This document shows, piece after piece, positions 6,140 to 49,446 of a stretch of DNA of 62,017 bases (the first letter of the stretch is position 1; every line of letters begins with the position of its first letter). This DNA is from Opitutales bacterium. Its GTDB lineage: Bacteria > Verrucomicrobiota > Verrucomicrobiia > Opitutales > JABDGR01. The position numbers and the translations under genes were made by a program. Location: NCBI GenBank assembly GCA_035546135.1, contig DASZWY010000136.1, forward strand, positions 1 to 62,017, given 5' to 3'. Below the pieces are notes generated by a model. The model did no database searches and had not been told where the DNA came from. It was given only the letters and a program-made list of their open reading frames with translations.

Positions 6140-6214
<75 letters not shown>

Positions 6215-6453
6215 ACGAGAAAAGGTAACGCGGAAAGAGGAGGATAGCCAATTCCCCTCGGGCACAGCAAGCAAAAAGGCATTTCCCGAGGGAAAACGCG
6301 CGGCGGAACGAATGGGGATGGCCACAAAAAGGAAGCGGAATCGCGCCAGTCGACCGGTTTGCAATGTGCCGTTTAGTGCCGTTTTGAAACCTTGGCAACC
6401 GTATGAAAAACCGTATTGATTTTTGGGCAACCGGTGGCATATTAGGGGTTATC

Positions 6454-7683
6454 ATGAAAAAGACCGACATCAAACTGGGCCAGTATCTCACGCGCCGGGG
6501 CAAGAAAGGCATCCTGGTGTTCCGCTTCTGGCACGAGAACACGGAATACCTGCGCAGCACGGGCACCGACCTGGCGGACGTGGCCCGCGACCGGGCCTGG
6601 GCGATTTACAACGACATCGTGAACCCGCAGGCCGGCCAGACCCCGCAGCCGCTCTTGCGCAACACGCACGCGACCGCCGGGCAGGTGGCGGACCTGTACC
6701 TCGCGGGCATTTGCCAGCGCGCCACCATCAGCCCGAAATCGGCGGCGCACAACGTGGCGAAGCTGGCGCGGCTCATCACCGAAACGGAGGGGTTTGCCGG
6801 CAAACAGGAGTGGCGCGACGTGCGGGTGAACCAACTGGATGAAGACTTTGTGAACCGCTGGCGGGCGCTCCGCTACGCCGCCAAGGGCCACGCCGGCCCG
6901 GCCAGGGCCGACCTTTGGCTGAACGGCACGCTGAACTCGACGCTGGCGCAGGCCCGCAGCCTTTTTTCGCGCGACGCGTGGAAGCTCTACGAAAAGCTGA
7001 AGATGCCGCCGCGGGACCAGCTGCTCTACGCGCCCCGCCTGGCCGAGCCGGATTACACCTTCGAGGAAATCCCGGCGCACGTGGACGCACGGATGCAATA
7101 CCTCGCGCGGGCGGCGCTCGACGGCAAGCCGGAAGCGGAATCCCCGAGCCAGGCGGTGGCGGTCATTTTCGAGCTGGCGCGGTTTTACGGCCTCACCGGC
7201 TACGAAATGCTGCATGCGCGCTGGGACTGGATGGAGGAGCAGCCGGACGGCTCCCTGGTGCTGGCCATCAAGGCGCGGCCGGCGCGGGACGGCATTCCCG
7301 CCTTCACCACGAAGCGCAACGCGAAGAACCGGCGGCTGGGCCTGAACCGCAGCCAGGTCGAACGTTGGAAAAGGGCGCCCCTCAGTCCATTATGCGCCGC
7401 CAAAGCAGCCAAGAAGAACCGCCAGCCGGACGCCGGCGGTTATATTATCCCCGGCCTGAACCGCGCCGACCGCGAGAGGACGCTGCAACGGGAGGCGAGC
7501 CAATGGGTACGGAAGTTTCTGCCGAACCAGACCAAGACACTGCACGCGCTGCGCGCCCAGGGCGGCAGCGAAGTGCTCAAAAAGTACGACCTCAACACCG
7601 CCGCCGACTGGCTAGGCGACCGCATCGAGACGGCGAAGAAATTCTACCTAGCGCGGCAAGTCGTGGCGGCGCTGGGGGCGTAG
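6454..7683 (+). CDS. int: tyrosine-type site-specific integrase
   Basis: Adjacent to att/tRNA. The C-terminal catalytic signature is visible: LHALRAQGGSEVL (HxxR box) and AKKFYLAR (catalytic Tyr region). ATG 6454 (MKKTDIKLGQYL) is preferred over ATG 6403, which lies inside a 21-bp repeat. Confidence 0.85.
   Translation: MKKTDIKLGQYLTRRGKKGILVFRFWHENTEYLRSTGTDLADVARDRAWAIYNDIVNPQAGQTPQPLLRNTHATAGQVADLYLAGICQRATISPKSAAHNVAKLARLITETEGFAGKQEWRDVRVNQLDEDFVNRWRALRYAAKGHAGPARADLWLNGTLNSTLAQARSLFSRDAWKLYEKLKMPPRDQLLYAPRLAEPDYTFEEIPAHVDARMQYLARAALDGKPEAESPSQAVAVIFELARFYGLTGYEMLHARWDWMEEQPDGSLVLAIKARPARDGIPAFTTKRNAKNRRLGLNRSQVERWKRAPLSPLCAAKAAKKNRQPDAGGYIIPGLNRADRERTLQREASQWVRKFLPNQTKTLHALRAQGGSEVLKKYDLNTAADWLGDRIETAKKFYLARQVVAALGA
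6792..6805. repeat. GTTTGCCGGCAAAC palindrome, perfect copy (inside int, read as GFAGKQ)
   Basis: Read directly from the sequence. Confidence 0.95.
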
Positions 7684-11294: not shown

Positions 11295-12013
11295 TTCTTA
11301 AAACCAGCTTCCCCAATCACCGCAAAGTTCGCGCCCTGCGCCGCATCACCGGCCGGGACGACAGCGTATTGTGCCTCCTCCGCTTATGGGCGTACGCCGA
11401 AGACAATTTGCGGCTGGAGTTCGACCTGACGCCGGACCAGCTGGAGGACATCTGCGAATGGGAAGGACAGGCCGGGGCGTTTTTCCGGGCGCTGGAACAG
11501 TGCGGCTGGATCGACGTGGATCCCGATGGGCGCTATTGGAGCGTGCATGCCTTCGCCGAGCACAACGGCCGGATGGTCGCCAACTGGACGCGCAACCCCA
11601 ACGGGCGACGCGGAACCCAAGGCGAAGCCAAAGAGAACCCACCCGGAACCCAAGGCGAAGCCACCCTGAACCCAAGGCGAAGCGGTTATATAGGTGATAG
11701 GGGTGATTTAGGAAAGGGATTAGGGGGATTGGGGCCGCAAGGCGGCAAAAAACGCTTTGTTCCCCCGACCCTTCAGGAATGGCGCGCTGAGGCTGTCCTG
11801 GTCGGCTGGAACAGCCCGAGCGACGTTAACGCAGCGTTTCACAGCTTCACCTCGAAGGGCTGGAAGGTCGGGCGTTCGCCGATGGTGAACTGGAAGTCGG
11901 CGGTGTGCACCTGCTTTGAACGTTGGCGCGGGGAAGGTGGGGTTGCGCAAAAAAACAGCCCCCCGACCGCAGAGCCAGGCACCGCCGCCGCCTTCGCCCA
12001 CACCGCGGACTGA
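11291..12013 (+). CDS. replication initiator/organizer-like protein (inferred)
   Basis: GTG start overlapping the upstream stop (GTGA). FPNHRKVRALRRITGRDDSVLCLLRLWAYAEDN and the C-terminal FHSFTSKGWKVGRSPMVNWKSAVCTCFERW resemble phage replisome-organizer/DnaD-like proteins (recalled). Its central linker carries the iteron cluster. Confidence 0.5.
   Translation: MILKTSFPNHRKVRALRRITGRDDSVLCLLRLWAYAEDNLRLEFDLTPDQLEDICEWEGQAGAFFRALEQCGWIDVDPDGRYWSVHAFAEHNGRMVANWTRNPNGRRGTQGEAKENPPGTQGEATLNPRRSGYIGDRGDLGKGLGGLGPQGGKKRFVPPTLQEWRAEAVLVGWNSPSDVNAAFHSFTSKGWKVGRSPMVNWKSAVCTCFERWRGEGGVAQKNSPPTAEPGTAAAFAHTAD
11612..11683. repeat. three in-phase iterons GAACCCAAGGCGAAGC (candidate phage origin)
   Basis: GGAACCCAAGGCGAAGCCA at 11612-11630 and 11645-11663. 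GAACCCAAGGCGAAGC at 11668-11683. The spacings are 33 and 22 bp. A locally AT-rich stretch with GGTGAT repeats follows (11686-11750). Confidence 0.6.
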
Positions 12014-12050: not shown

Positions 12051-13673
12051 ATGACCACCGCTACCCAGTCAGCCCCGCCCGCCGAGAATGCCAGCCGTTT
12101 GCCGGCAAACGCGGCGAAAAAAAGTCCGCCCCCCGCGCCGCAACTGCGGCAGATCCCGCTCGACTGCATCAAGCGGTCGCGCCTGAACCCGCGCAAGGAC
12201 TTCGACAAGGCCGCGCTCCAGGAGCTGGCCGACAGCATCCAGGCCAACGGCGTGTTGCAGCCCATCGTCGTGCGGCGCACCGAGAAGGGCGCGGAGTTCT
12301 ACGAAATCGTCATGGGCGAGCGCCGCCACCGCGCGGCGGAACTGGCCGGGCTGAAGGCGCTGCCGGCGGTGGTGCACGAGGAACTGGCCGACGCGGCCGC
12401 GCTGGAGATGGCGCTGGTGGAAAACTTGCAGCGGCGCGACATGAACGCGATGGAGGAGGCTGAAGGCTTCGCGCGCCTGCAAGAACTCATGGCGAAGGAG
12501 AGCGGCAAGAAGGTGACGCACGACGATTTGGCGGAACGCGTCGGCAAGGCCAGGCCCACGGTGACGAATGCCCTGCGCCTGACCGAATTGTCCGAGGACG
12601 TGCGCGAAACCATCCGCACCGGCAAATTGACCGCGGCGCACGGCCTGGCCTTGTTGAAGTTCAACGCGTGGCCCAAAGTGGTTCAGCTCATTGCCAAACT
12701 CATTTTGACGGAGCACGTCACCGCGGGCCAACTGGAAAAAAATCTGCCTTACGACGTGCGCCGGGCGCTGGACCAGTCGAGGCTGCTATTTGACTGCAAC
12801 GGTTACGAATTCGAAGACCATGACTGGGTAGCCGCGCAAAAGAAAAATCCGGAGAAATTCATTTCGCTGGGCGACACGCTCTATTGCGCCGACGTTCCGT
12901 GGGGCAAACAGCAGATGGCGGAGGCGGAAAAGGCGCGCGCGGCCGCCGCAAAAGCCGCGGCGGAAAAACTCGGTAAGGAAACAGGCAAAAAGGGGAAAGT
13001 CCTCGACCTAGACAAGCTTGAATATGCCGACCGGAAAAAGTGGACCGCTTTGTCGGAGGTGCCCGGCAATTTGCGCGGAGAAATTCCCGTGGAGGTCAAA
13101 TGCGCGGCGACCGAACAATACACCAATAGCGGGAAACCGTTTACGGTCATTCCAACCGGTCTAGCCAATACATTAAAGGCAAAGGCCAATCGCGCCAAAA
13201 CCGGCAAGTTGCGGGCGGAGTCCCAGGTCGTTTTTGCCTGCATTGAAAAGACCTGGGGCGCGACAACGATTTTCGATGGCGCTGCCGCGCTGAAGGACAG
13301 CGCCCTGGTGGTCATGGCGCATGAAATCCTCGGACGCTACTCCGGCAAAATGATCGAAACGGCGGCGGGTGAACTCGGCTTGACGGTCGAACGCGCCGTG
13401 ACAAGCGCGGGCTATGCCTCGGGTGCATACGGCGGCGAAAACAAAGTCCTCGATGCGTTGATGAAACTGGGCGGCCGCAACGCGGTTCGCCTGGCACTAC
13501 GGGTCGTGTTCAACAAGGAAGTCAGCAACGCGCTGGCCTACAAACATGAAAAAATGCCCGCGCGCGTGGAATGGTTCACGGCGAAGGCCGGCGCGGCGCG
13601 CTACCGCAAGGAAGCGGAAAAGCAAGTAAGCGACATCCTCGATTCCGCCAAGAAAGGGGCGAAGAAAAAATGA
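12051..13673 (+). CDS. ParB-family (ParB/Noc/KorB-like) DNA-binding protein, orphan (no ParA)
   Basis: Box I LQELADSIQANGVLQPIVV. Box II EIVMGERRHRAAELAG (GERRxRA CTP-binding motif). HTH THDDLAERVGKARPTVTNALRLTEL. ATG 12051. The ~340-aa C-terminal extension has no motifs I recognise. Confidence 0.85.
   Translation: MTTATQSAPPAENASRLPANAAKKSPPPAPQLRQIPLDCIKRSRLNPRKDFDKAALQELADSIQANGVLQPIVVRRTEKGAEFYEIVMGERRHRAAELAGLKALPAVVHEELADAAALEMALVENLQRRDMNAMEEAEGFARLQELMAKESGKKVTHDDLAERVGKARPTVTNALRLTELSEDVRETIRTGKLTAAHGLALLKFNAWPKVVQLIAKLILTEHVTAGQLEKNLPYDVRRALDQSRLLFDCNGYEFEDHDWVAAQKKNPEKFISLGDTLYCADVPWGKQQMAEAEKARAAAAKAAAEKLGKETGKKGKVLDLDKLEYADRKKWTALSEVPGNLRGEIPVEVKCAATEQYTNSGKPFTVIPTGLANTLKAKANRAKTGKLRAESQVVFACIEKTWGATTIFDGAAALKDSALVVMAHEILGRYSGKMIETAAGELGLTVERAVTSAGYASGAYGGENKVLDALMKLGGRNAVRLALRVVFNKEVSNALAYKHEKMPARVEWFTAKAGAARYRKEAEKQVSDILDSAKKGAKKK
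12097..12110. repeat. GTTTGCCGGCAAAC palindrome, perfect copy (codons 16-20 of the ParB-like gene, RLPAN)
   Basis: Read directly from the sequence. Confidence 0.95.
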
Positions 13674-14047
13674 ACGGCCTGGCCAAACAGTTGAAGCTGC
13701 AGCGGCTGCGCCTGATGGACCCGGCGCGGGCGGTGGAACGCGTCACCGAGTTGCAGGACGGCGTGGCGGAATTGGAAATGCTGGCCGCCCTGGCGAAGAA
13801 GGCGAACAAGCGCATGGCGGCGATGCTGCGGGCGCGGCGCGTGGCCGCGGGCATCAGCGAGTCGCAGTTCTGCCAGGTGTTGGGCCTGACGCGCGAGCAG
13901 CTCCACGCGCTGGAATTTGGCGCGGAGGCATGGACGCCGAGCGCGGCGCGAATGTACGCGCAGGCCTGCGAGGCCAACTACCGCCCGAAAATCCGCAAAA
14001 CGCCGGAGGCCGCGCCGGCCCCGGCCATCCAGGAGGGCGCAGCATGA
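13670..14047 (+). CDS. XRE-like HTH protein
   Basis: ATGA overlap with the ParB-like stop. ISESQFCQVLGLTREQLHALEFG is an XRE-type HTH. Confidence 0.55.
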   Translation: MNGLAKQLKLQRLRLMDPARAVERVTELQDGVAELEMLAALAKKANKRMAAMLRARRVAAGISESQFCQVLGLTREQLHALEFGAEAWTPSAARMYAQACEANYRPKIRKTPEAAPAPAIQEGAA

Positions 14048-14205
14048 ATCCCCTGAGAGAATGCAGCACAGGCGCAATGATAGTATTATTGCCCTATCAC
14101 GAGAGCGTAAACTCGAGCGTAAGCCTTTACGGGCTACCTAGGCGGCCGGCACGCAGCACAGAAGGCAAAACGCAGGCGCGTACTACTGCATTCTCTCAGG
14201 GGATT
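14047..14205. repeat. 159-bp element bounded by a perfect 20-bp inverted repeat
   Basis: AATCCCCTGAGAGAATGCAG (14047-14066) is the exact reverse complement of CTGCATTCTCTCAGGGGATT (14186-14205). The 119-nt interior is AT-richer, with small internal hairpins and a duplicated GCAGCACAG. It fills the largest non-coding gap of the replication module. Confidence 0.7.
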
Positions 14206-14228
14206 TGTGAGCAAGAAAGGAGCCGCGC

Positions 14229-14636
14229 ATGAAAGGCCTTTCCGTCAGACAGCCCTGGGCGACGTTGATTCTGCGCGCCGGGAAAGATATCGAAAACCGC
14301 ACGTGGCCAACGAGGGCGCGGGGTTGGGTGCTGTTGCACGCGTTCCAGGACGCCGGTGATTTCATGGCCATGCACTGTCTTTCATGGTGCGGACTCGCGC
14401 CAGTTGAATTTCCGAAAGGCGCGATTCTGGGCGCAATGAAGATTGACGGCTGCGTTACTGAGTCGAAGTCGCCGTGGTTTGTCGGCCCCTATGGCTACAT
14501 CATCGCCGAGACGCGTATTTTTGCCAAGCCGATCCCCTATACCGGCGCACTTGGCTTTTTCAACGTCGAGCTTTCGCCCGAACTCGGCGTCCAGATTCAA
14601 CTCGCCAATCTTCACAACATCAGGTGGGCCGCATGA
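14229..14636 (+). CDS. ASCH (PUA-like) domain protein
   Basis: LSVRQPWATLILRAGKDIENRTW is the N-terminal ASCH signature. AAGGAG Shine-Dalgarno at 14217-14222. Confidence 0.75.
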   Translation: MKGLSVRQPWATLILRAGKDIENRTWPTRARGWVLLHAFQDAGDFMAMHCLSWCGLAPVEFPKGAILGAMKIDGCVTESKSPWFVGPYGYIIAETRIFAKPIPYTGALGFFNVELSPELGVQIQLANLHNIRWAA

Positions 14637-14848
14637 AAACGAAAAAGCGCAAACGGATTTGCTCTGCCTGCGGCGTCAAGGAAGCCCAGGGGAAAGGCTT
14701 TGCCTACGCGCATTTGTGCCTGAGGTGCCGCAACACCGAGGAGGAGCTGGACGGCCAGCGGCGCGAACACTTCGTGCCCAAAGACGACTTTTCGGCCACC
14801 GGCTGTTACCACACCAAAAAATTTCAACTCCAGGAGGATGCTCGGTGA
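14633..14848 (+). CDS. small zinc-ribbon protein
   Basis: ATGA overlap with the ASCH stop. Two CxxC pairs (CSAC and CLRC). 71 aa. Confidence 0.5.
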   Translation: MKTKKRKRICSACGVKEAQGKGFAYAHLCLRCRNTEEELDGQRREHFVPKDDFSATGCYHTKKFQLQEDAR

Positions 14849-15096
14849 AAAATCCACGACTGGCCGAATTCTACCGACAGCTCCGCGCGCGCGGGGAAAC
14901 GACGGCGACGCTCGCGGCCAAAATCGGCCGCAGCCGGGTGCACCTGACGCACATTTTCAACGGCAGCAAGCGCGGGCGCTTCACGTGGCAGGTGCTGTAT
15001 CCGTTGCTCACCGAAAAAGAGTTGTCCCTTTTATTACAATGTTCCGCGTGGAACGGCACAGACGGCAAACCGCTTGCGCAAAAGGCCACACGATGA
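14845..15096 (+). CDS. small HTH protein
   Basis: GTGA overlap with the upstream stop. AGGAGGA lies 7 nt upstream. HTH-like TTATLAAKIGRSRVHLTHIFNG. The competing frame (ATG 14838) gives Arg-rich low-complexity sequence. Confidence 0.5.
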   Translation: MKNPRLAEFYRQLRARGETTATLAAKIGRSRVHLTHIFNGSKRGRFTWQVLYPLLTEKELSLLLQCSAWNGTDGKPLAQKATR

Positions 15097-17225
15097 TTTA
15101 CGACGCCAAAGAGGTCAACCGCCGGCTCGCGCAGGAAATTGCGCGGTTCTGTTTTGAATTTCTAAGTTCTGGGCGCCGGGAAGGGCGGCAATGGAAGGTG
15201 TGCGACGTGAGCAATTCACCGCAGCCGGGCAAGGGCAACGATTCATTGGTCATTGACCTGGAAGGCGGCAAGCAAGGCGTGTGGTGCGATTTCGGCAACA
15301 ACAACCAGACGGGCAGCCCGCTCGACCTGTGGATGGCCGTGCGCGGCTGCGATTTCAAAACGGCACTCCGGCAAGCGAAAGACTGGCTGGGCCTGAAGGA
15401 AACCGGCGACGCGCCCGGCGAATTTCACCGCGCCACGGCGCGGCCAACTGAGACCCCGGCGAGCGAGCCCAAGGCCATCCGCGAAGACTGGGCACCCATT
15501 AAAGAGGGCAGCCGCGCATGGAAATACCTCACAGAAGTGCGCGGGATTGCCGGTGCGGTGCTGAAAAAATACCGCGTCGGCGAGGGCGATTTCTGGTTCG
15601 GTGAGGTCAATGCCAGCGTGCCCGGCATCGCCTTTCCGGCCTACGATGCGAGCGGCAAACGGCTGCTGATGGTCAAGTACCTCGCGCTGGACCGGCCAGC
15701 CGGCAAAAAGATGACGCGGTCGAACAAGGACGCGGTGTACCACCTCATTGGCATGCACGCGTGCAACCCGAGCAAGGGCAAGCTGGTGCTGTGCGAAGGC
15801 GAGATCGACATGCTGACCGCCGCGACGGCGGGCTACGAAGCGGTGAGCGTGCCGTTTGGCGCGAAAGGCAACAGCCCGGATGGGCGCACCAACCGCGGCA
15901 ATGCGTGGATTGAGGTCGATTGGGACTGGCTCCAGCTTTGGAACGACATTCTGCTGGCCTACGACAACGACGAGCAGGGCCACGAGGCCGTGGCGGCCGT
16001 CAAAACGCGGCTGGGCGTGGACCGCTGCCTGTTCCTGGACTGGAGGGAAGTGGACGGCAAGGACCTCAACGAAGTGCATACCCGCAGCGAGGACGAACAC
16101 CTCGAACAGGGCAGCGATGTTAAAAAACTGCTGGAACGCGCCCGCGCCGAAGACCCGGAAGCGTTCAAGCGCACGCGCGATTATGAGGCGGATATTTGGG
16201 AGGAATTTTACCCGAGCAGCGGCCAGGAGCCGGGTTATGCGCCGCCGTGGGCGATGCCCTTCCGCTTCCGGCCCAACCAGGTGACGGTCTGGACCGGCTA
16301 CAGCAAGCACGGCAAGACCATTTGCCTCAGCTACGTGCTCGTTTACCTCGGCAGCCTGGGCGCGCGCGCGTGCATCTACAGCGGCGAAGTCAAGGCGCGG
16401 AAGACGCTCAAAAACGCCATGCGGCAAGTGATGGGCCGCGCCAAGCCGCAAAAACCAACGGCAGACGGCCAGGGCTTTGAACCCGACCGCGAACTGTTCG
16501 AGCGCGCGATAGCGTGGATGGACAACGTGTTTTTCATCTACGACCGCCTCGGCAGCGTGAAGCTCGATGACGTGCTCGCCGTATTCGGCTACGCCGCGCG
16601 GCGCTACGGCGTCACCCAGTTCGCCATCGACAGCCTGATGAAGCTGGACGACGTCCACGAGGACGACAACGACAGCCAGAAAATCGTCATGAACAAGCTG
16701 ACGGATTTTGCGGCGCGGTTTCCCGGCGCGCACGTCCACCTGGTGGCGCATTCGAAAAAGCCCGGCGAAAAGCGGCCGGAGACCCGGTATTGGCCGCAAA
16801 AGCACGACGTGCTCGGCAGCGTCCACATCACCAACCTGCCGCACAACGTGGTTTGCGTGTACCGCAACGTGAACAAGGAGATGCAGCTCGAACTCCCCAC
16901 CACGACCGAGGAGGAGCGCGAGGCCATTGCGAAACAATACGACGCGCTTTTCATCGTGCAGGCCCAGCGCGAAGGCGAGGGCGACCTGCCCATCCGGCAG
17001 CTGTGGTTCGATGTCGGCGCGAGCTGGCAGTATTTCGAGCGCGACGGCGAAAACCCGCGGGTCTTCTGCGACGGCGGCCAATTCCTGCCCGGCGCCGGCG
17101 CAAACCTCGCGCGCGCGGCGCTGGCCGCGCCGCCGCCGAAAGTGCACGGCCCCGCGAGCGCGCAGGCCGTGCTCGGCGGATTGGATGAGGCCGCGAAGAA
17201 AACCCCACGAACCTTCCAGCATTAA
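15093..17225 (+). CDS. bifunctional DNA primase (TOPRIM) / DnaB-like replicative helicase
   Basis: TOPRIM motifs LVLCEGEIDMLTA and LLAYDNDEQG. Helicase Walker A GYSKHGKT and Walker B FAIDSLMKLDD. Architecture is T7 gp4-like. ATG 15093 overlaps the upstream stop. Confidence 0.85.
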   Translation: MIYDAKEVNRRLAQEIARFCFEFLSSGRREGRQWKVCDVSNSPQPGKGNDSLVIDLEGGKQGVWCDFGNNNQTGSPLDLWMAVRGCDFKTALRQAKDWLGLKETGDAPGEFHRATARPTETPASEPKAIREDWAPIKEGSRAWKYLTEVRGIAGAVLKKYRVGEGDFWFGEVNASVPGIAFPAYDASGKRLLMVKYLALDRPAGKKMTRSNKDAVYHLIGMHACNPSKGKLVLCEGEIDMLTAATAGYEAVSVPFGAKGNSPDGRTNRGNAWIEVDWDWLQLWNDILLAYDNDEQGHEAVAAVKTRLGVDRCLFLDWREVDGKDLNEVHTRSEDEHLEQGSDVKKLLERARAEDPEAFKRTRDYEADIWEEFYPSSGQEPGYAPPWAMPFRFRPNQVTVWTGYSKHGKTICLSYVLVYLGSLGARACIYSGEVKARKTLKNAMRQVMGRAKPQKPTADGQGFEPDRELFERAIAWMDNVFFIYDRLGSVKLDDVLAVFGYAARRYGVTQFAIDSLMKLDDVHEDDNDSQKIVMNKLTDFAARFPGAHVHLVAHSKKPGEKRPETRYWPQKHDVLGSVHITNLPHNVVCVYRNVNKEMQLELPTTTEEEREAIAKQYDALFIVQAQREGEGDLPIRQLWFDVGASWQYFERDGENPRVFCDGGQFLPGAGANLARAALAAPPPKVHGPASAQAVLGGLDEAAKKTPRTFQH

Positions 17226-49406: not shown

Positions 49407-49446
<40 letters not shown>

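What the first reader, a model, noticed from the sequence alone, without database searches (positions are those of the whole stretch)
14047..14205. 159-bp non-coding element closed by a perfect 20-bp inverted repeat between the HTH gene and the ASCH gene
AATCCCCTGAGAGAATGCAG (14047-14066, starting on the last base of the upstream stop codon) is the exact reverse complement of 14186-14205. The interior is 119 nt, AT-richer than its surroundings, with small hairpins (GCAAT...ATTGC, CGTAA...TTACG) and a duplicated GCAGCACAG. The right arm ends 11 nt before the AAGGAG Shine-Dalgarno of the ASCH (predicted RNA-binding fold) gene.

A perfect 20-bp stem is far beyond chance. I cannot tell which of these it is:
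- a structured RNA or RNase III processing site inside the early polycistron, as between T7 early genes;
- a MITE-like insertion with terminal inverted repeats;
- a replication or recombination site next to the primase-helicase operon.
Basis: seen in the sequence. Interest (0 to 1): 0.6.

Follow-up and report, generated by a model that had tools for sequence, protein, structure and literature searches.

The report
Orphan inverted-repeat insertion bridging two prophage genes
A 159-base stretch closed by a perfect 20-base inverted repeat is most likely a single stray miniature mobile element that landed exactly where two coupled prophage genes overlapped; it is a tidy but fairly ordinary kind of genomic parasite, not a demonstrated RNA device.

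Summary
AATCCCCTGAGAGAATGCAG (14047-14066) is the exact reverse complement of 14186-14205, with 119 nt between; about 8e-5 such repeats are expected by chance in the window.

All the excess folding energy lies in that terminal stem. The interior folds no better than shuffled sequence, and no Rfam family matches.

The element is a true orphan. It is single-copy in its own 88%-complete MAG. It was not found in 60 relatives, 400 further genomes of the phylum, GTDB representatives, IMG/VR, JGI metagenomes, GenBank phages or PLSDB plasmids.

Three facts point to an insertion:
- Every gene junction from ParB to the primase-helicase is a 4-nt ATGA/GTGA overlap, except this one.
- The element is flanked by TG/TG. 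Joining the flanks makes the HTH gene end in a TGA that overlaps the ASCH ATG.
- ASCH overlaps its upstream gene in this way in 4 of 6 contigs of distant relatives.

The stretch is not strictly non-coding. A 62-codon frame (14044-14232) runs through it and overlaps both neighbours as ATGA, but it has no coding signature.

Best reading (about 0.5): a solo MITE/RPE-like insertion, tolerated because it preserves translational coupling. Its RNA stem may be cut by host RNase III, as with Correia elements.

The scan has noted MITEs in prophages before, on other DNA.

The parts
14047..14066 (+). Left terminal inverted repeat, AATCCCCTGAGAGAATGCAG. Its first base supplies the A of the HTH stop codon TGA.
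14186..14205 (+). Right terminal inverted repeat, the exact reverse complement of the left arm.
14067..14185 (.). 119-nt interior with GC 0.55. It has no excess secondary structure, no Rfam match and no strong sigma-70-like promoter on either strand. It holds short direct repeats: GCAGCACAG x2, GAGCGTAA x2 and CAGGCGC x2.
   Evidence: sequence read.
14045..14046 (.). TG, the left copy of the putative 2-bp target-site duplication. It is also part of ATG 14044-14046 and TGA 14045-14047.
   Evidence: TG is the only flank length from 1 to 6 at which both sides match.
14206..14207 (.). TG, the right copy of the putative 2-bp target-site duplication.
14043..14209 (+). Full RNA stem on the + strand. 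It has 20 Watson-Crick pairs plus 4 outer pairs (C-G, A-U, U-G, G-U) and encloses the interior.
   Evidence: -75.7 kcal/mol, z -6.19; pair probabilities 0.96-1.0 within a 550-nt context.
14044..14232 (+). 62-codon bridging frame. Its ATG overlaps the HTH stop as ATGA, and its TGA overlaps the ASCH ATG as ATGA. The element makes up codons 2-54. It has no coding signature, no homologues and a low-confidence fold.
13670..14047 (+). Upstream HTH gene (125 aa; HTH_31/HTH_3, below the Pfam cut-offs). It has no homologues in the large protein collection. The empty-site model makes it 133 aa, ending ...AACEQERSRA.
14217..14222 (+). AAGGAG Shine-Dalgarno sequence of the ASCH gene, 6 nt before the ATG and outside the stem.
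14229..14636 (+). Downstream ASCH-like gene (135 aa; phrog_3193, E 1.7e-41). It is followed, through 4-nt overlaps, by a Zn-finger ORF (14633-14848), a small HTH gene (14845-15096) and the primase-helicase (15093-17225).

Best explanation
The element is a solitary, non-autonomous, MITE-like insertion, built like Correia elements and Rickettsia palindromic elements. It is 159 bp long, with perfect 20-bp terminal inverted repeats and no transposase.

It landed at a TG inside the last codons of the HTH gene, where that gene's stop originally overlapped the ASCH start codon as ATGA. This is in the early replication operon of a prophage integrated next to tRNA-Asn; the host is probably Verrucomicrobiota.

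Consequences read directly from the sequence:
- The HTH gene is cut short by 8 codons, and its new stop (TG+A) borrows the element's first base.
- The target's ATG, the element's length of exactly 53 codons and its one stop-free frame together create a 62-codon bridging frame. That frame overlaps HTH and ASCH as ATGA on both sides.
- The unbroken chain of 4-nt overlaps from ParB to the primase-helicase is therefore kept.

Inferred:
- The insertion was tolerated because it kept ribosomes flowing towards the replication genes. Translation of the bridge has not been shown.
- On the operon mRNA the two arms pair into a stem of 20 Watson-Crick pairs plus 4 outer pairs. Whenever the stem is not melted by translating ribosomes, it could serve as a substrate for the host's RNase III, as shown for Correia elements in Neisseria mRNAs. 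A cut there would separate the ParB-HTH message from the ASCH-primase message, which keeps its own AAGGAG ribosome-binding site.
For: Repeat and structure:
- The perfect 20-bp inverted repeat is far beyond chance.
- All excess folding energy lies in the terminal stem, as expected for TIRs rather than an evolved RNA (z -6.19 with the arms, +0.36 and +0.65 without).
- The stem forms with probability about 1.0 in transcript context, and the host encodes RNase III.

Foreign character:
- GC is 0.54 against 0.64-0.70 nearby.
- GC by codon position is flat (0.51/0.57/0.55), against about 0.6/0.45/0.8 in real genes.
- The codon-usage score is -0.78 in every frame, like the wrong frames of real genes.

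Insertion geometry:
- TG/TG is the only matching flank length. Joining the flanks gives a 133-aa HTH whose TGA overlaps the ASCH ATG.
- ParB/HTH, ASCH/ZnF, ZnF/HTH2 and HTH2/primase are all 4-nt overlaps; only this junction has a 181-nt gap.
- In 4 of the 6 contigs of distant ASCH relatives the upstream gene overlaps ASCH by 4 nt (ATGA or GTGA). The closest relative (56% identity) has a 35-nt gap, too small to hold such an element.

Bridging frame:
- It was called as a gene in an independent assembly, but it has no homologue among 1.84 billion representative proteins, no Pfam family and pLDDT 53.

Literature:
- The MITE criteria of size, TIR and TSD are met (PMC11602168).
- RNase III cleaves at Correia TIRs, and RPEs of about 150 bp insert in frame (PMC2649163, PMC10969869).
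Against: - No second copy, parent IS or empty site was found anywhere. The element is single-copy in its own MAG under sensitive blastn. It was not found in 60 relatives or 400 genomes of the phylum. The exact arm and the relaxed two-arm pattern gave nothing meaningful in GTDB representatives, IMG/VR or JGI metagenomes. Phages and plasmids gave no match.
- No DDE_Tnp_1, rve or DDE_3 transposase is detectable in the MAG.
- A 2-bp flank match has a 1-in-16 chance. The empty-site argument as a whole is worth roughly p = 0.04-0.05.
- No close relative of the prophage exists to show presence or absence directly. The HTH gene has no homologues, so its original C-terminus cannot be checked.
- The MAG is 88% complete, and repeats are often lost from MAGs, so the copy number is a lower bound.
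Confidence: 0.5

Rival explanations
1. The stem is an RNA processing or regulatory site that evolved in place. It would be a long-range RNase III target inside the early polycistron, like the T7 early-region sites or the stems that flank rRNAs. It would separate the regulatory genes (ParB, HTH) from the replication genes and set their relative expression.
For: - The stem forms with probability about 1.0 in a 550-nt context. It is extended by 4 pairs, two of them G-U, which pair only on the + (mRNA) strand.
- The host has RNase III.
- The position is between functional modules of a co-directional operon.
- The ASCH gene keeps its own Shine-Dalgarno sequence outside the stem.
Against: - There is no Rfam match.
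- The interior has no excess structure.
- Twenty of 20 Watson-Crick pairs, with no wobble or bulge, is typical of a DNA-level copy rather than a long-evolved RNA helix.
- No related phage has anything similar at this or other junctions.
- This reading does not explain the TG/TG flanks or the restored ATGA overlap.
- No other such stem exists in the prophage, whereas T7 uses several.
Confidence: 0.17
2. It is a DNA-level site. Candidates are a pair of inverted protein-binding sites (for the HTH or ParB-like protein), a replication-initiation or primase-loading hairpin beside the primase-helicase gene, or a small invertible switch.
For: - Two identical 20-bp sites lie in inverted orientation, 139 bp centre to centre.
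- An AT-richer core with short direct repeats lies between them.
- DNA-binding and replication genes are adjacent.
Against: - The arms are not themselves palindromic and occur nowhere else in the prophage.
- There are no iterons in the arms. A related phage's likely origin looks quite different, with nested iteron arrays (L027:7304-7558). A separate iteron cluster was noted at 11612-11750 (e1-3928946, untested).
- No serine recombinase was found in the MAG, and no Pfam-detectable tyrosine recombinase on this contig.
- No strong promoter-like site lies inside the element on either strand.
- Protein-binding sites rarely need 20 of 20 identity.
Confidence: 0.12
3. The 62-codon frame (14044-14232) is a genuine small protein gene of the operon, and the inverted repeat inside it is incidental or tunes its translation.
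For: - It has ATGA overlaps at both ends, as at the other junctions of this gene chain.
- It was called as a gene in the Logan assembly.
- It is the only one of six frames without a stop.
Against: - It shows no codon-position GC periodicity, and its codon-usage score (-0.78) resembles non-coding frames.
- It has no homologue among 1.84 billion representatives and no Pfam family.
- pLDDT is 53 and pTM 0.16, with almost no secondary structure.
- An open frame has about a 0.07 chance, given the arms and the length class.
- This reading leaves the 20-bp repeat (about 8e-5 expected by chance in the window) unexplained.
Confidence: 0.08
4. It is an assembly artefact.
Against: An independent Logan assembly gives the identical 5,599 bp. 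The element lies in the middle of a 62-kb contig, with unique sequence on both sides and a unique interior.
Confidence: 0.02

Closest known systems
Correia repeat-enclosed elements (CREE/NEMIS) of Neisseria
   Same: - The size is almost the same (154-157 bp against 159 bp).
- Both have terminal inverted repeats of 20-26 bp, a 2-bp target duplication and no coding capacity of their own.
- Both occur in or next to operons and in prophage regions.
- When transcribed, the paired repeats of a Correia element form a hairpin that RNase III binds or cleaves (PMC2649163, PMC10969869).
   Different: - Correia elements number in the hundreds per genome, are specific to Neisseria, duplicate TA (rarely CA), and often carry an IHF site and promoter halves.
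- This element is single-copy, lies in a probable Verrucomicrobiota prophage and is flanked by TG.
- I saw no IHF-consensus site by eye, and the scan found no promoter-like site.
- No sequence relationship is claimed.
Rickettsia palindromic elements (RPE)
   Same: - Both are palindromic insertions of about 150 bp.
- Both stay open in one frame, so the host's reading frames are not destroyed (PMC10969869).
- Here the element is exactly 53 codons long and open only in the frame that links the two neighbouring genes.
   Different: - RPEs form multi-copy families and make in-frame fusions inside genes.
- This single copy splits off the last 8 codons of a gene and creates a separate stop-start (ATGA) bridge rather than a fusion.
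RNase III processing sites of the phage T7 early region, and the stems flanking rRNA
   Same: Both are double-stranded RNA stems placed between genes of a phage early polycistron. A stem of at least 20 bp, closing a longer insert, resembles the rRNA processing stalks. The host enzyme is present.
   Different: - T7 sites are compact hairpins of about 60 nt with internal loops. Several occur per operon and they are conserved among relatives.
- Here there is one perfect long-range stem, with no relatives and no evidence of cleavage.
MITEs reported in viral genomes (vMITEs; PMC11602168)
   Same: It is a small TIR-bounded non-coding element inside a phage genome, a situation reported for only about 0.01% of viral sequences.
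   Different: Those vMITEs were mostly linked to host copies at 95% identity or more. No host or other copy was found for this one.

Membership tests
MITE (miniature inverted-repeat transposable element) | Small size (50-800 bp in prokaryotes) | tested here: met
   159 bp; criterion from PMC11602168.
MITE (miniature inverted-repeat transposable element) | Terminal inverted repeats of at least 10-15 bp | tested here: met
   20 of 20 bp are complementary.
MITE (miniature inverted-repeat transposable element) | Target-site duplication of 2-10 bp | tested here: inconclusive
   TG/TG flanks the element. A 2-bp match has a 1-in-16 chance. It gains weight only because the joined flanks restore an ATGA gene overlap.
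MITE (miniature inverted-repeat transposable element) | No transposase of its own | tested here: met
   Its only open frame is 53 codons, with no Pfam or PHROG hit and no homologues.
MITE (miniature inverted-repeat transposable element) | Several copies, or presence/absence polymorphism showing mobility | tested here: not met
   - One copy in its own MAG (88% complete).
- None in 60 relatives or 400 genomes of the phylum.
- None in GTDB representatives, IMG/VR or JGI metagenomes by arm patterns.
- None in phages or plasmids.
- An empty site is only inferred.
MITE (miniature inverted-repeat transposable element) | A partner autonomous IS with matching terminal repeats | tested here: not met
   The arm occurs nowhere else in the MAG. 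The 18-mer hits in GTDB genomes lack a second arm. No DDE_Tnp_1, rve or DDE_3 transposase was found in the MAG. ISfinder was not available.
Correia element (CREE) | TA (rarely CA) target duplication, in a Neisseria host | tested here: not met
   The flanks are TG/TG. The relatives of the phage genes are from Verrucomicrobiota. The resemblance is in architecture only.
RNase III processing site | Double-stranded RNA stem of about two helical turns in a transcribed region, with the host enzyme present | tested here: met
   A stem of 20 Watson-Crick pairs plus 4 outer pairs forms with probability about 1.0. The RNase III gene is on contig C230. Transcription is inferred from the co-directional operon.
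RNase III processing site | Demonstrated cleavage or discrete RNA ends at the stem | not testable with these tools
Any described RNA family (Rfam 15) | Covariance-model match at or near the gathering score | tested here: not met
   The best hit was 16 bits against a 50-bit cut-off, E = 3, to an unrelated snoRNA model.
Invertible promoter switch (inverton) | Inverted repeats flanking a promoter, plus a nearby invertase | tested here: not met
   Repeats are present, but no promoter-like site lies inside the element. No serine recombinase was found in the MAG and no Pfam tyrosine recombinase on the contig. Orientation variants could not be sought in reads.
Retron msr-msd | a1/a2 repeats enclosing a structured ncRNA, next to a reverse transcriptase | tested here: not met
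   No RVT_1 match in the genome. The interior has no long msd-type hairpin.

The most novel reading that the evidence does not exclude
The element may have been domesticated as a translation-sensing switch. While ribosomes reinitiate at the ATGA and read the 62-codon bridge, they keep the left arm single-stranded and pass coupling on to the replication genes. When upstream translation drops, the 20+4-pair stem forms and RNase III cuts the operon mRNA in two. This would uncouple the ASCH and primase-helicase genes from the ParB and HTH genes. It would be a single-copy TIR element acting as a module boundary in a phage operon.
Probability: 0.1. Interest if true: 0.6.

Novelty: new member of a known kind. 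Interest (0 to 1): 0.3.

Why it matters
If the reading is right, this is a clean example of how a tightly coupled phage operon can absorb a parasitic insertion. The element sits exactly on a stop-start overlap and, through its length and one open frame, rebuilds the overlap on both sides.

MITE-type elements are reported in only about 0.01% of viral sequences (PMC11602168), and an orphan with no detectable family is unusual.

It also gives a simple experimental handle, the stem and the bridging frame, for asking how translational coupling and RNase III shape expression of phage replication genes in the little-studied Verrucomicrobiota. It does not open a new class of system.

Tried and rejected
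**Searches that found nothing**
- Rfam at a permissive threshold gave only noise. tRNA and tmRNA scanning found nothing at the site.
- Searches for copies found none: own genome, 60 relatives (16), 400 genomes of the phylum (66), GenBank phages and plasmids. The exact 20-mer was absent from IMG/VR (17) and JGI metagenomes (25).
- The MITE census paper has no supplementary sequences held as text.

**Pattern hits that proved to be chance**
- The relaxed two-arm pattern gave 0 hits in GTDB genomes and IMG/VR. It gave 3 metagenome hits that share only the 11-nt cores the pattern demanded and belong to other elements.
- The 18-mer arm in GTDB genomes gave 6 hits, below the roughly 17 expected by chance. 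None has a second arm or extended similarity.

**Attempts to find a close relative of the prophage**
- The nearest ASCH relative is 56% identical.
- The HTH gene has no homologues.
- The nearest primase-helicase relative is 49% identical.
- Single-protein locus searches in IMG/VR found nothing.
- 300 genomes of the order gave only distant ASCH hits.

**Hypotheses considered and rejected**
- Retron: no reverse transcriptase.
- Inverton: no recombinase or promoter.
- Iteron-type origin or parS: no iterons or palindromic site in the arms.
- Intrinsic terminator: no T-run.
- IS10-like end: an 11-nt resemblance to the IS10 terminus, recalled from memory, extends into the flank and there is no 9-bp duplication, so I treat it as chance.
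- Translational bypass: no matching take-off and landing codons.

**Errors and blocked routes**
- My first frame for the small HTH2 gene was wrong. It was corrected to GTG 14845, in agreement with the Logan gene calls.

Full report
**1. The observation**

The sequence is as described. AATCCCCTGAGAGAATGCAG at 14047-14066 is the exact reverse complement of 14186-14205, with 119 nt between. No other copy with up to 3 mismatches exists in the 62-kb window, and none appeared in 100 shuffles.

From base composition, 8e-5 perfect 20-bp inverted repeats with a 20-400 nt spacer are expected in the window and 0.004 in the 2.9-Mb genome. A scan of the whole genome found 12 repeats of 20 bp or more. Most of the others belong to unrelated REP-like host families.

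An independent Logan assembly of run SRR12170516 is identical over 5,599 bp, including the element. The feature is therefore not an artefact of one assembler.

**2. Context**

The window is one whole contig of an 88%-complete MAG. It holds a prophage between two identical 40-bp copies of part of tRNA-Asn, at 6175-6214 and 49407-49446 (note e1-3928945, verified; tRNA).

The element lies in a long co-directional early operon with this gene order:
- ParB-like gene (ends 13673)
- HTH gene (13670-14047)
- the element
- ASCH-like gene (14229-14636; phrog_3193)
- Zn-finger ORF (14633-14848)
- small HTH gene (14845-15096)
- primase-helicase (15093-17225)
- exonuclease and further genes

The closest primase relatives, at about 49% identity, come from Verrucomicrobiota such as Ruficoccus.

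**3. Structure**

As + strand RNA, the region folds at -75.7 kcal/mol with z = -6.19. The minus strand is similar.

The 119-nt interior alone folds no better than shuffles (z +0.36 and +0.65). The whole signal is therefore the terminal stem.

In a 550-nt context the 20 pairs, plus four outer pairs (C-G, A-U, U-G, G-U), have pairing probabilities of 0.96-1.0. No Rfam family matches: the best hit is 16 bits against a 50-bit cut-off. No promoter-like or terminator-like site lies inside the element.

**4. Copy number and relatives**

The element is an orphan. The searches gave:
- one copy in its own genome, even with word-size-7 blastn
- none in 60 relatives, including 6 of the same genus, or in 400 genomes sampled from the phylum
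- no match in GenBank phages or PLSDB plasmids
- no exact arm in IMG/VR or JGI metagenomes

A relaxed pattern (11-nt cores of both arms, interior length varied by 15 nt either way) found nothing in GTDB representatives or IMG/VR. It found three metagenome contigs that share only the cores the pattern demanded. My estimate is that about 3 such hits are expected by chance.

The outer 18-mer found six GTDB contigs, fewer than the roughly 17 expected by chance. None has a second arm or any extended similarity.

The MAG shows no DDE_Tnp_1, rve or DDE_3 transposase.

**5. Evidence for an insertion**

The genes from ParB to the primase-helicase are joined by 4-nt overlaps:
- ATGA at 13670-13673
- ATGA at 14633-14636
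- GTGA at 14845-14848
- ATGA at 15093-15096

The only exception is the 181-nt gap that holds the element.

The element is flanked by TG (14045-14046) and TG (14206-14207), the only flank length from 1 to 6 at which both sides agree. Joining the flanks with one TG gives a 133-aa HTH gene (...AACEQERSRA). Its TGA overlaps the ASCH ATG as ATGA (junction printed).

ASCH relatives (45-56% identity) provide the only outside comparison:
- In L026, L027, L028 and L030 the upstream gene overlaps ASCH by exactly 4 nt (ATGA, ATGA, ATGA, GTGA).
- L029 has an 82-nt gap.
- The closest relative has a 35-nt gap.

L027 even shares the order ParB, X, ASCH, then primase. None of these loci, nor three primase-relative loci, holds a comparable inverted repeat or any sequence like the element.

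I put the chance that TG/TG and the restored overlap arise together without an insertion at about 0.04-0.05 (and reasoning).

**6. The bridging frame**

The exhaustive protein search with the element's one open frame returned only a 62-aa ORF from this same locus. It comes from the Logan assembly.

Its ATG (14044-14046) overlaps the HTH stop (14045-14047) as ATGA. Its TGA (14230-14232) overlaps the ASCH ATG as ATGA. The element is exactly codons 2-54. With this ORF counted, six consecutive junctions are 4-nt overlaps.

Yet the stretch carries no coding signature:
- GC at codon positions 1/2/3 is 0.51/0.57/0.55, against about 0.6/0.45/0.8 in the neighbours.
- The codon-usage score is -0.78, which matches the wrong frames of real genes.
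- It has no homologue, no Pfam family and a poor fold (pLDDT 53, pTM 0.16).

Given the arms, a stop-free interior has a chance of 0.20, and a length divisible by three has a chance of 1/3. The bridge is therefore either a coincidence of about 2-7% or, more plausibly, the reason this particular insertion survived upstream of essential replication genes.

**7. Mechanism**

Shown:
- the anatomy of the element
- its uniqueness and foreign composition
- the operon's coupling architecture
- the stability of the stem
- the presence of host RNase III

Inferred:
- insertion with a TG duplication
- truncation of the HTH gene by 8 codons
- continued ribosome flow through the bridge
- formation of a 24-pair duplex (20 Watson-Crick pairs plus 4 outer pairs) when the bridge is not being translated, which RNase III could cut

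RNase III cleavage is documented for Correia elements (PMC2649163, PMC10969869). Such a cut would leave the ASCH-primase message with its own AAGGAG site.

**8. Rivals**

- An RNA processing site evolved in place remains possible (0.17). It does not explain the flanks, the perfect Watson-Crick arms or the lack of any relative.
- DNA-site readings (operator pair, origin, inverton) lack iterons, a recombinase and a promoter; I put them at 0.12.
- A true small gene is unlikely (0.08).
- An artefact is very unlikely (0.02).
- A retron is excluded, because no reverse transcriptase was found.

**9. Comparison and novelty**

In architecture the element is closest to Correia elements in size, TIRs, 2-bp duplication and RNase III hairpin. 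It is closest to Rickettsia palindromic elements in being about 150 bp long and open in frame.

It meets the MITE criteria of size, TIR and lack of a transposase (PMC11602168). It fails the criteria of copy number and a partner IS, so I describe it as MITE-like rather than as a proven member. MITEs are rare in viral genomes (0.01%; PMC11602168).

Earlier notes of this scan describe an IS630-type MITE in a P2-like prophage (e1-169979) and in-frame palindromic insertions in Parcubacteria (e1-1557522), both on other DNA. I did not test those notes.

**10. Limits**

No reads could be laid to look for empty sites, inversion or RNA ends. That is the decisive missing test.

Noticed in passing
window 14845-15096: A small 83-aa HTH gene (HTH_31, E 9e-4; phrog_925). 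It starts at a GTG that overlaps the Zn-finger ORF's stop and ends in an ATGA overlap with the true primase-helicase start at 15093. The long 795-aa ORF from 14838 therefore overstates the primase gene.
   Followed up: partly
window 6403-7683: The 426-aa ORF next to attL, taken to be the integrase, has no Pfam or PHROG match. The best is DUF2390 at E 0.67. A six-frame search finds no Phage_integrase or Resolvase domain anywhere on this contig. The integrase may be of an unrecognised type, or the frame may be mis-called.
   Followed up: partly
L027:7304-7558: This distant phage shares the ParB, X, ASCH and primase gene order. It has nested perfect inverted repeats of 28 and 30 bp, built from GCGACGGTA(A)G iterons, just after its DUF5906 primase-like gene. 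This is a likely replication origin, lying inside a called 93-aa ORF.
   Followed up: no
L011:7380-7620 and L013:1-200: Two contigs of metagenome Ga0272448 carry a different palindromic element. Terminal inverted repeats of about 40 bp (TTAATTGCTCAAGGGGGC...CCCCCTGAGAGACCCCCC) enclose an AT-rich core of about 100 nt, and the whole is nested in further inverted flanks.
   Followed up: no
G000 contigs C58:14298-15087, C193:9878-9955, C13:2538-2613, C256:428-499, C185:13217-13286, C82:18844-18915: The host genome has at least three REP-like repeat families with perfect inverted arms of 21-32 bp, for example CGGGCGCAGCAAGACTGCGCCCCTAC. They are unrelated to the element studied.
   Followed up: no
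L014:4543-4677 and L017:4581-4598: Two Bacillota MAGs hold a repeated element (GTCATTCTGAGGGCGCATCGCGCCC...GAATCCCCTGAGAGAATGCCGTTATT...). By chance it contains 19 nt of the arm. L014 has two tandem copies 117 nt apart.
   Followed up: no
window 14229-15096: The ASCH, Zn-finger and small HTH genes have lower GC3 (0.69-0.72) than the flanking HTH (0.90) and primase-helicase (0.82) genes. This suggests the three-gene block is a more recent acquisition.
   Followed up: no
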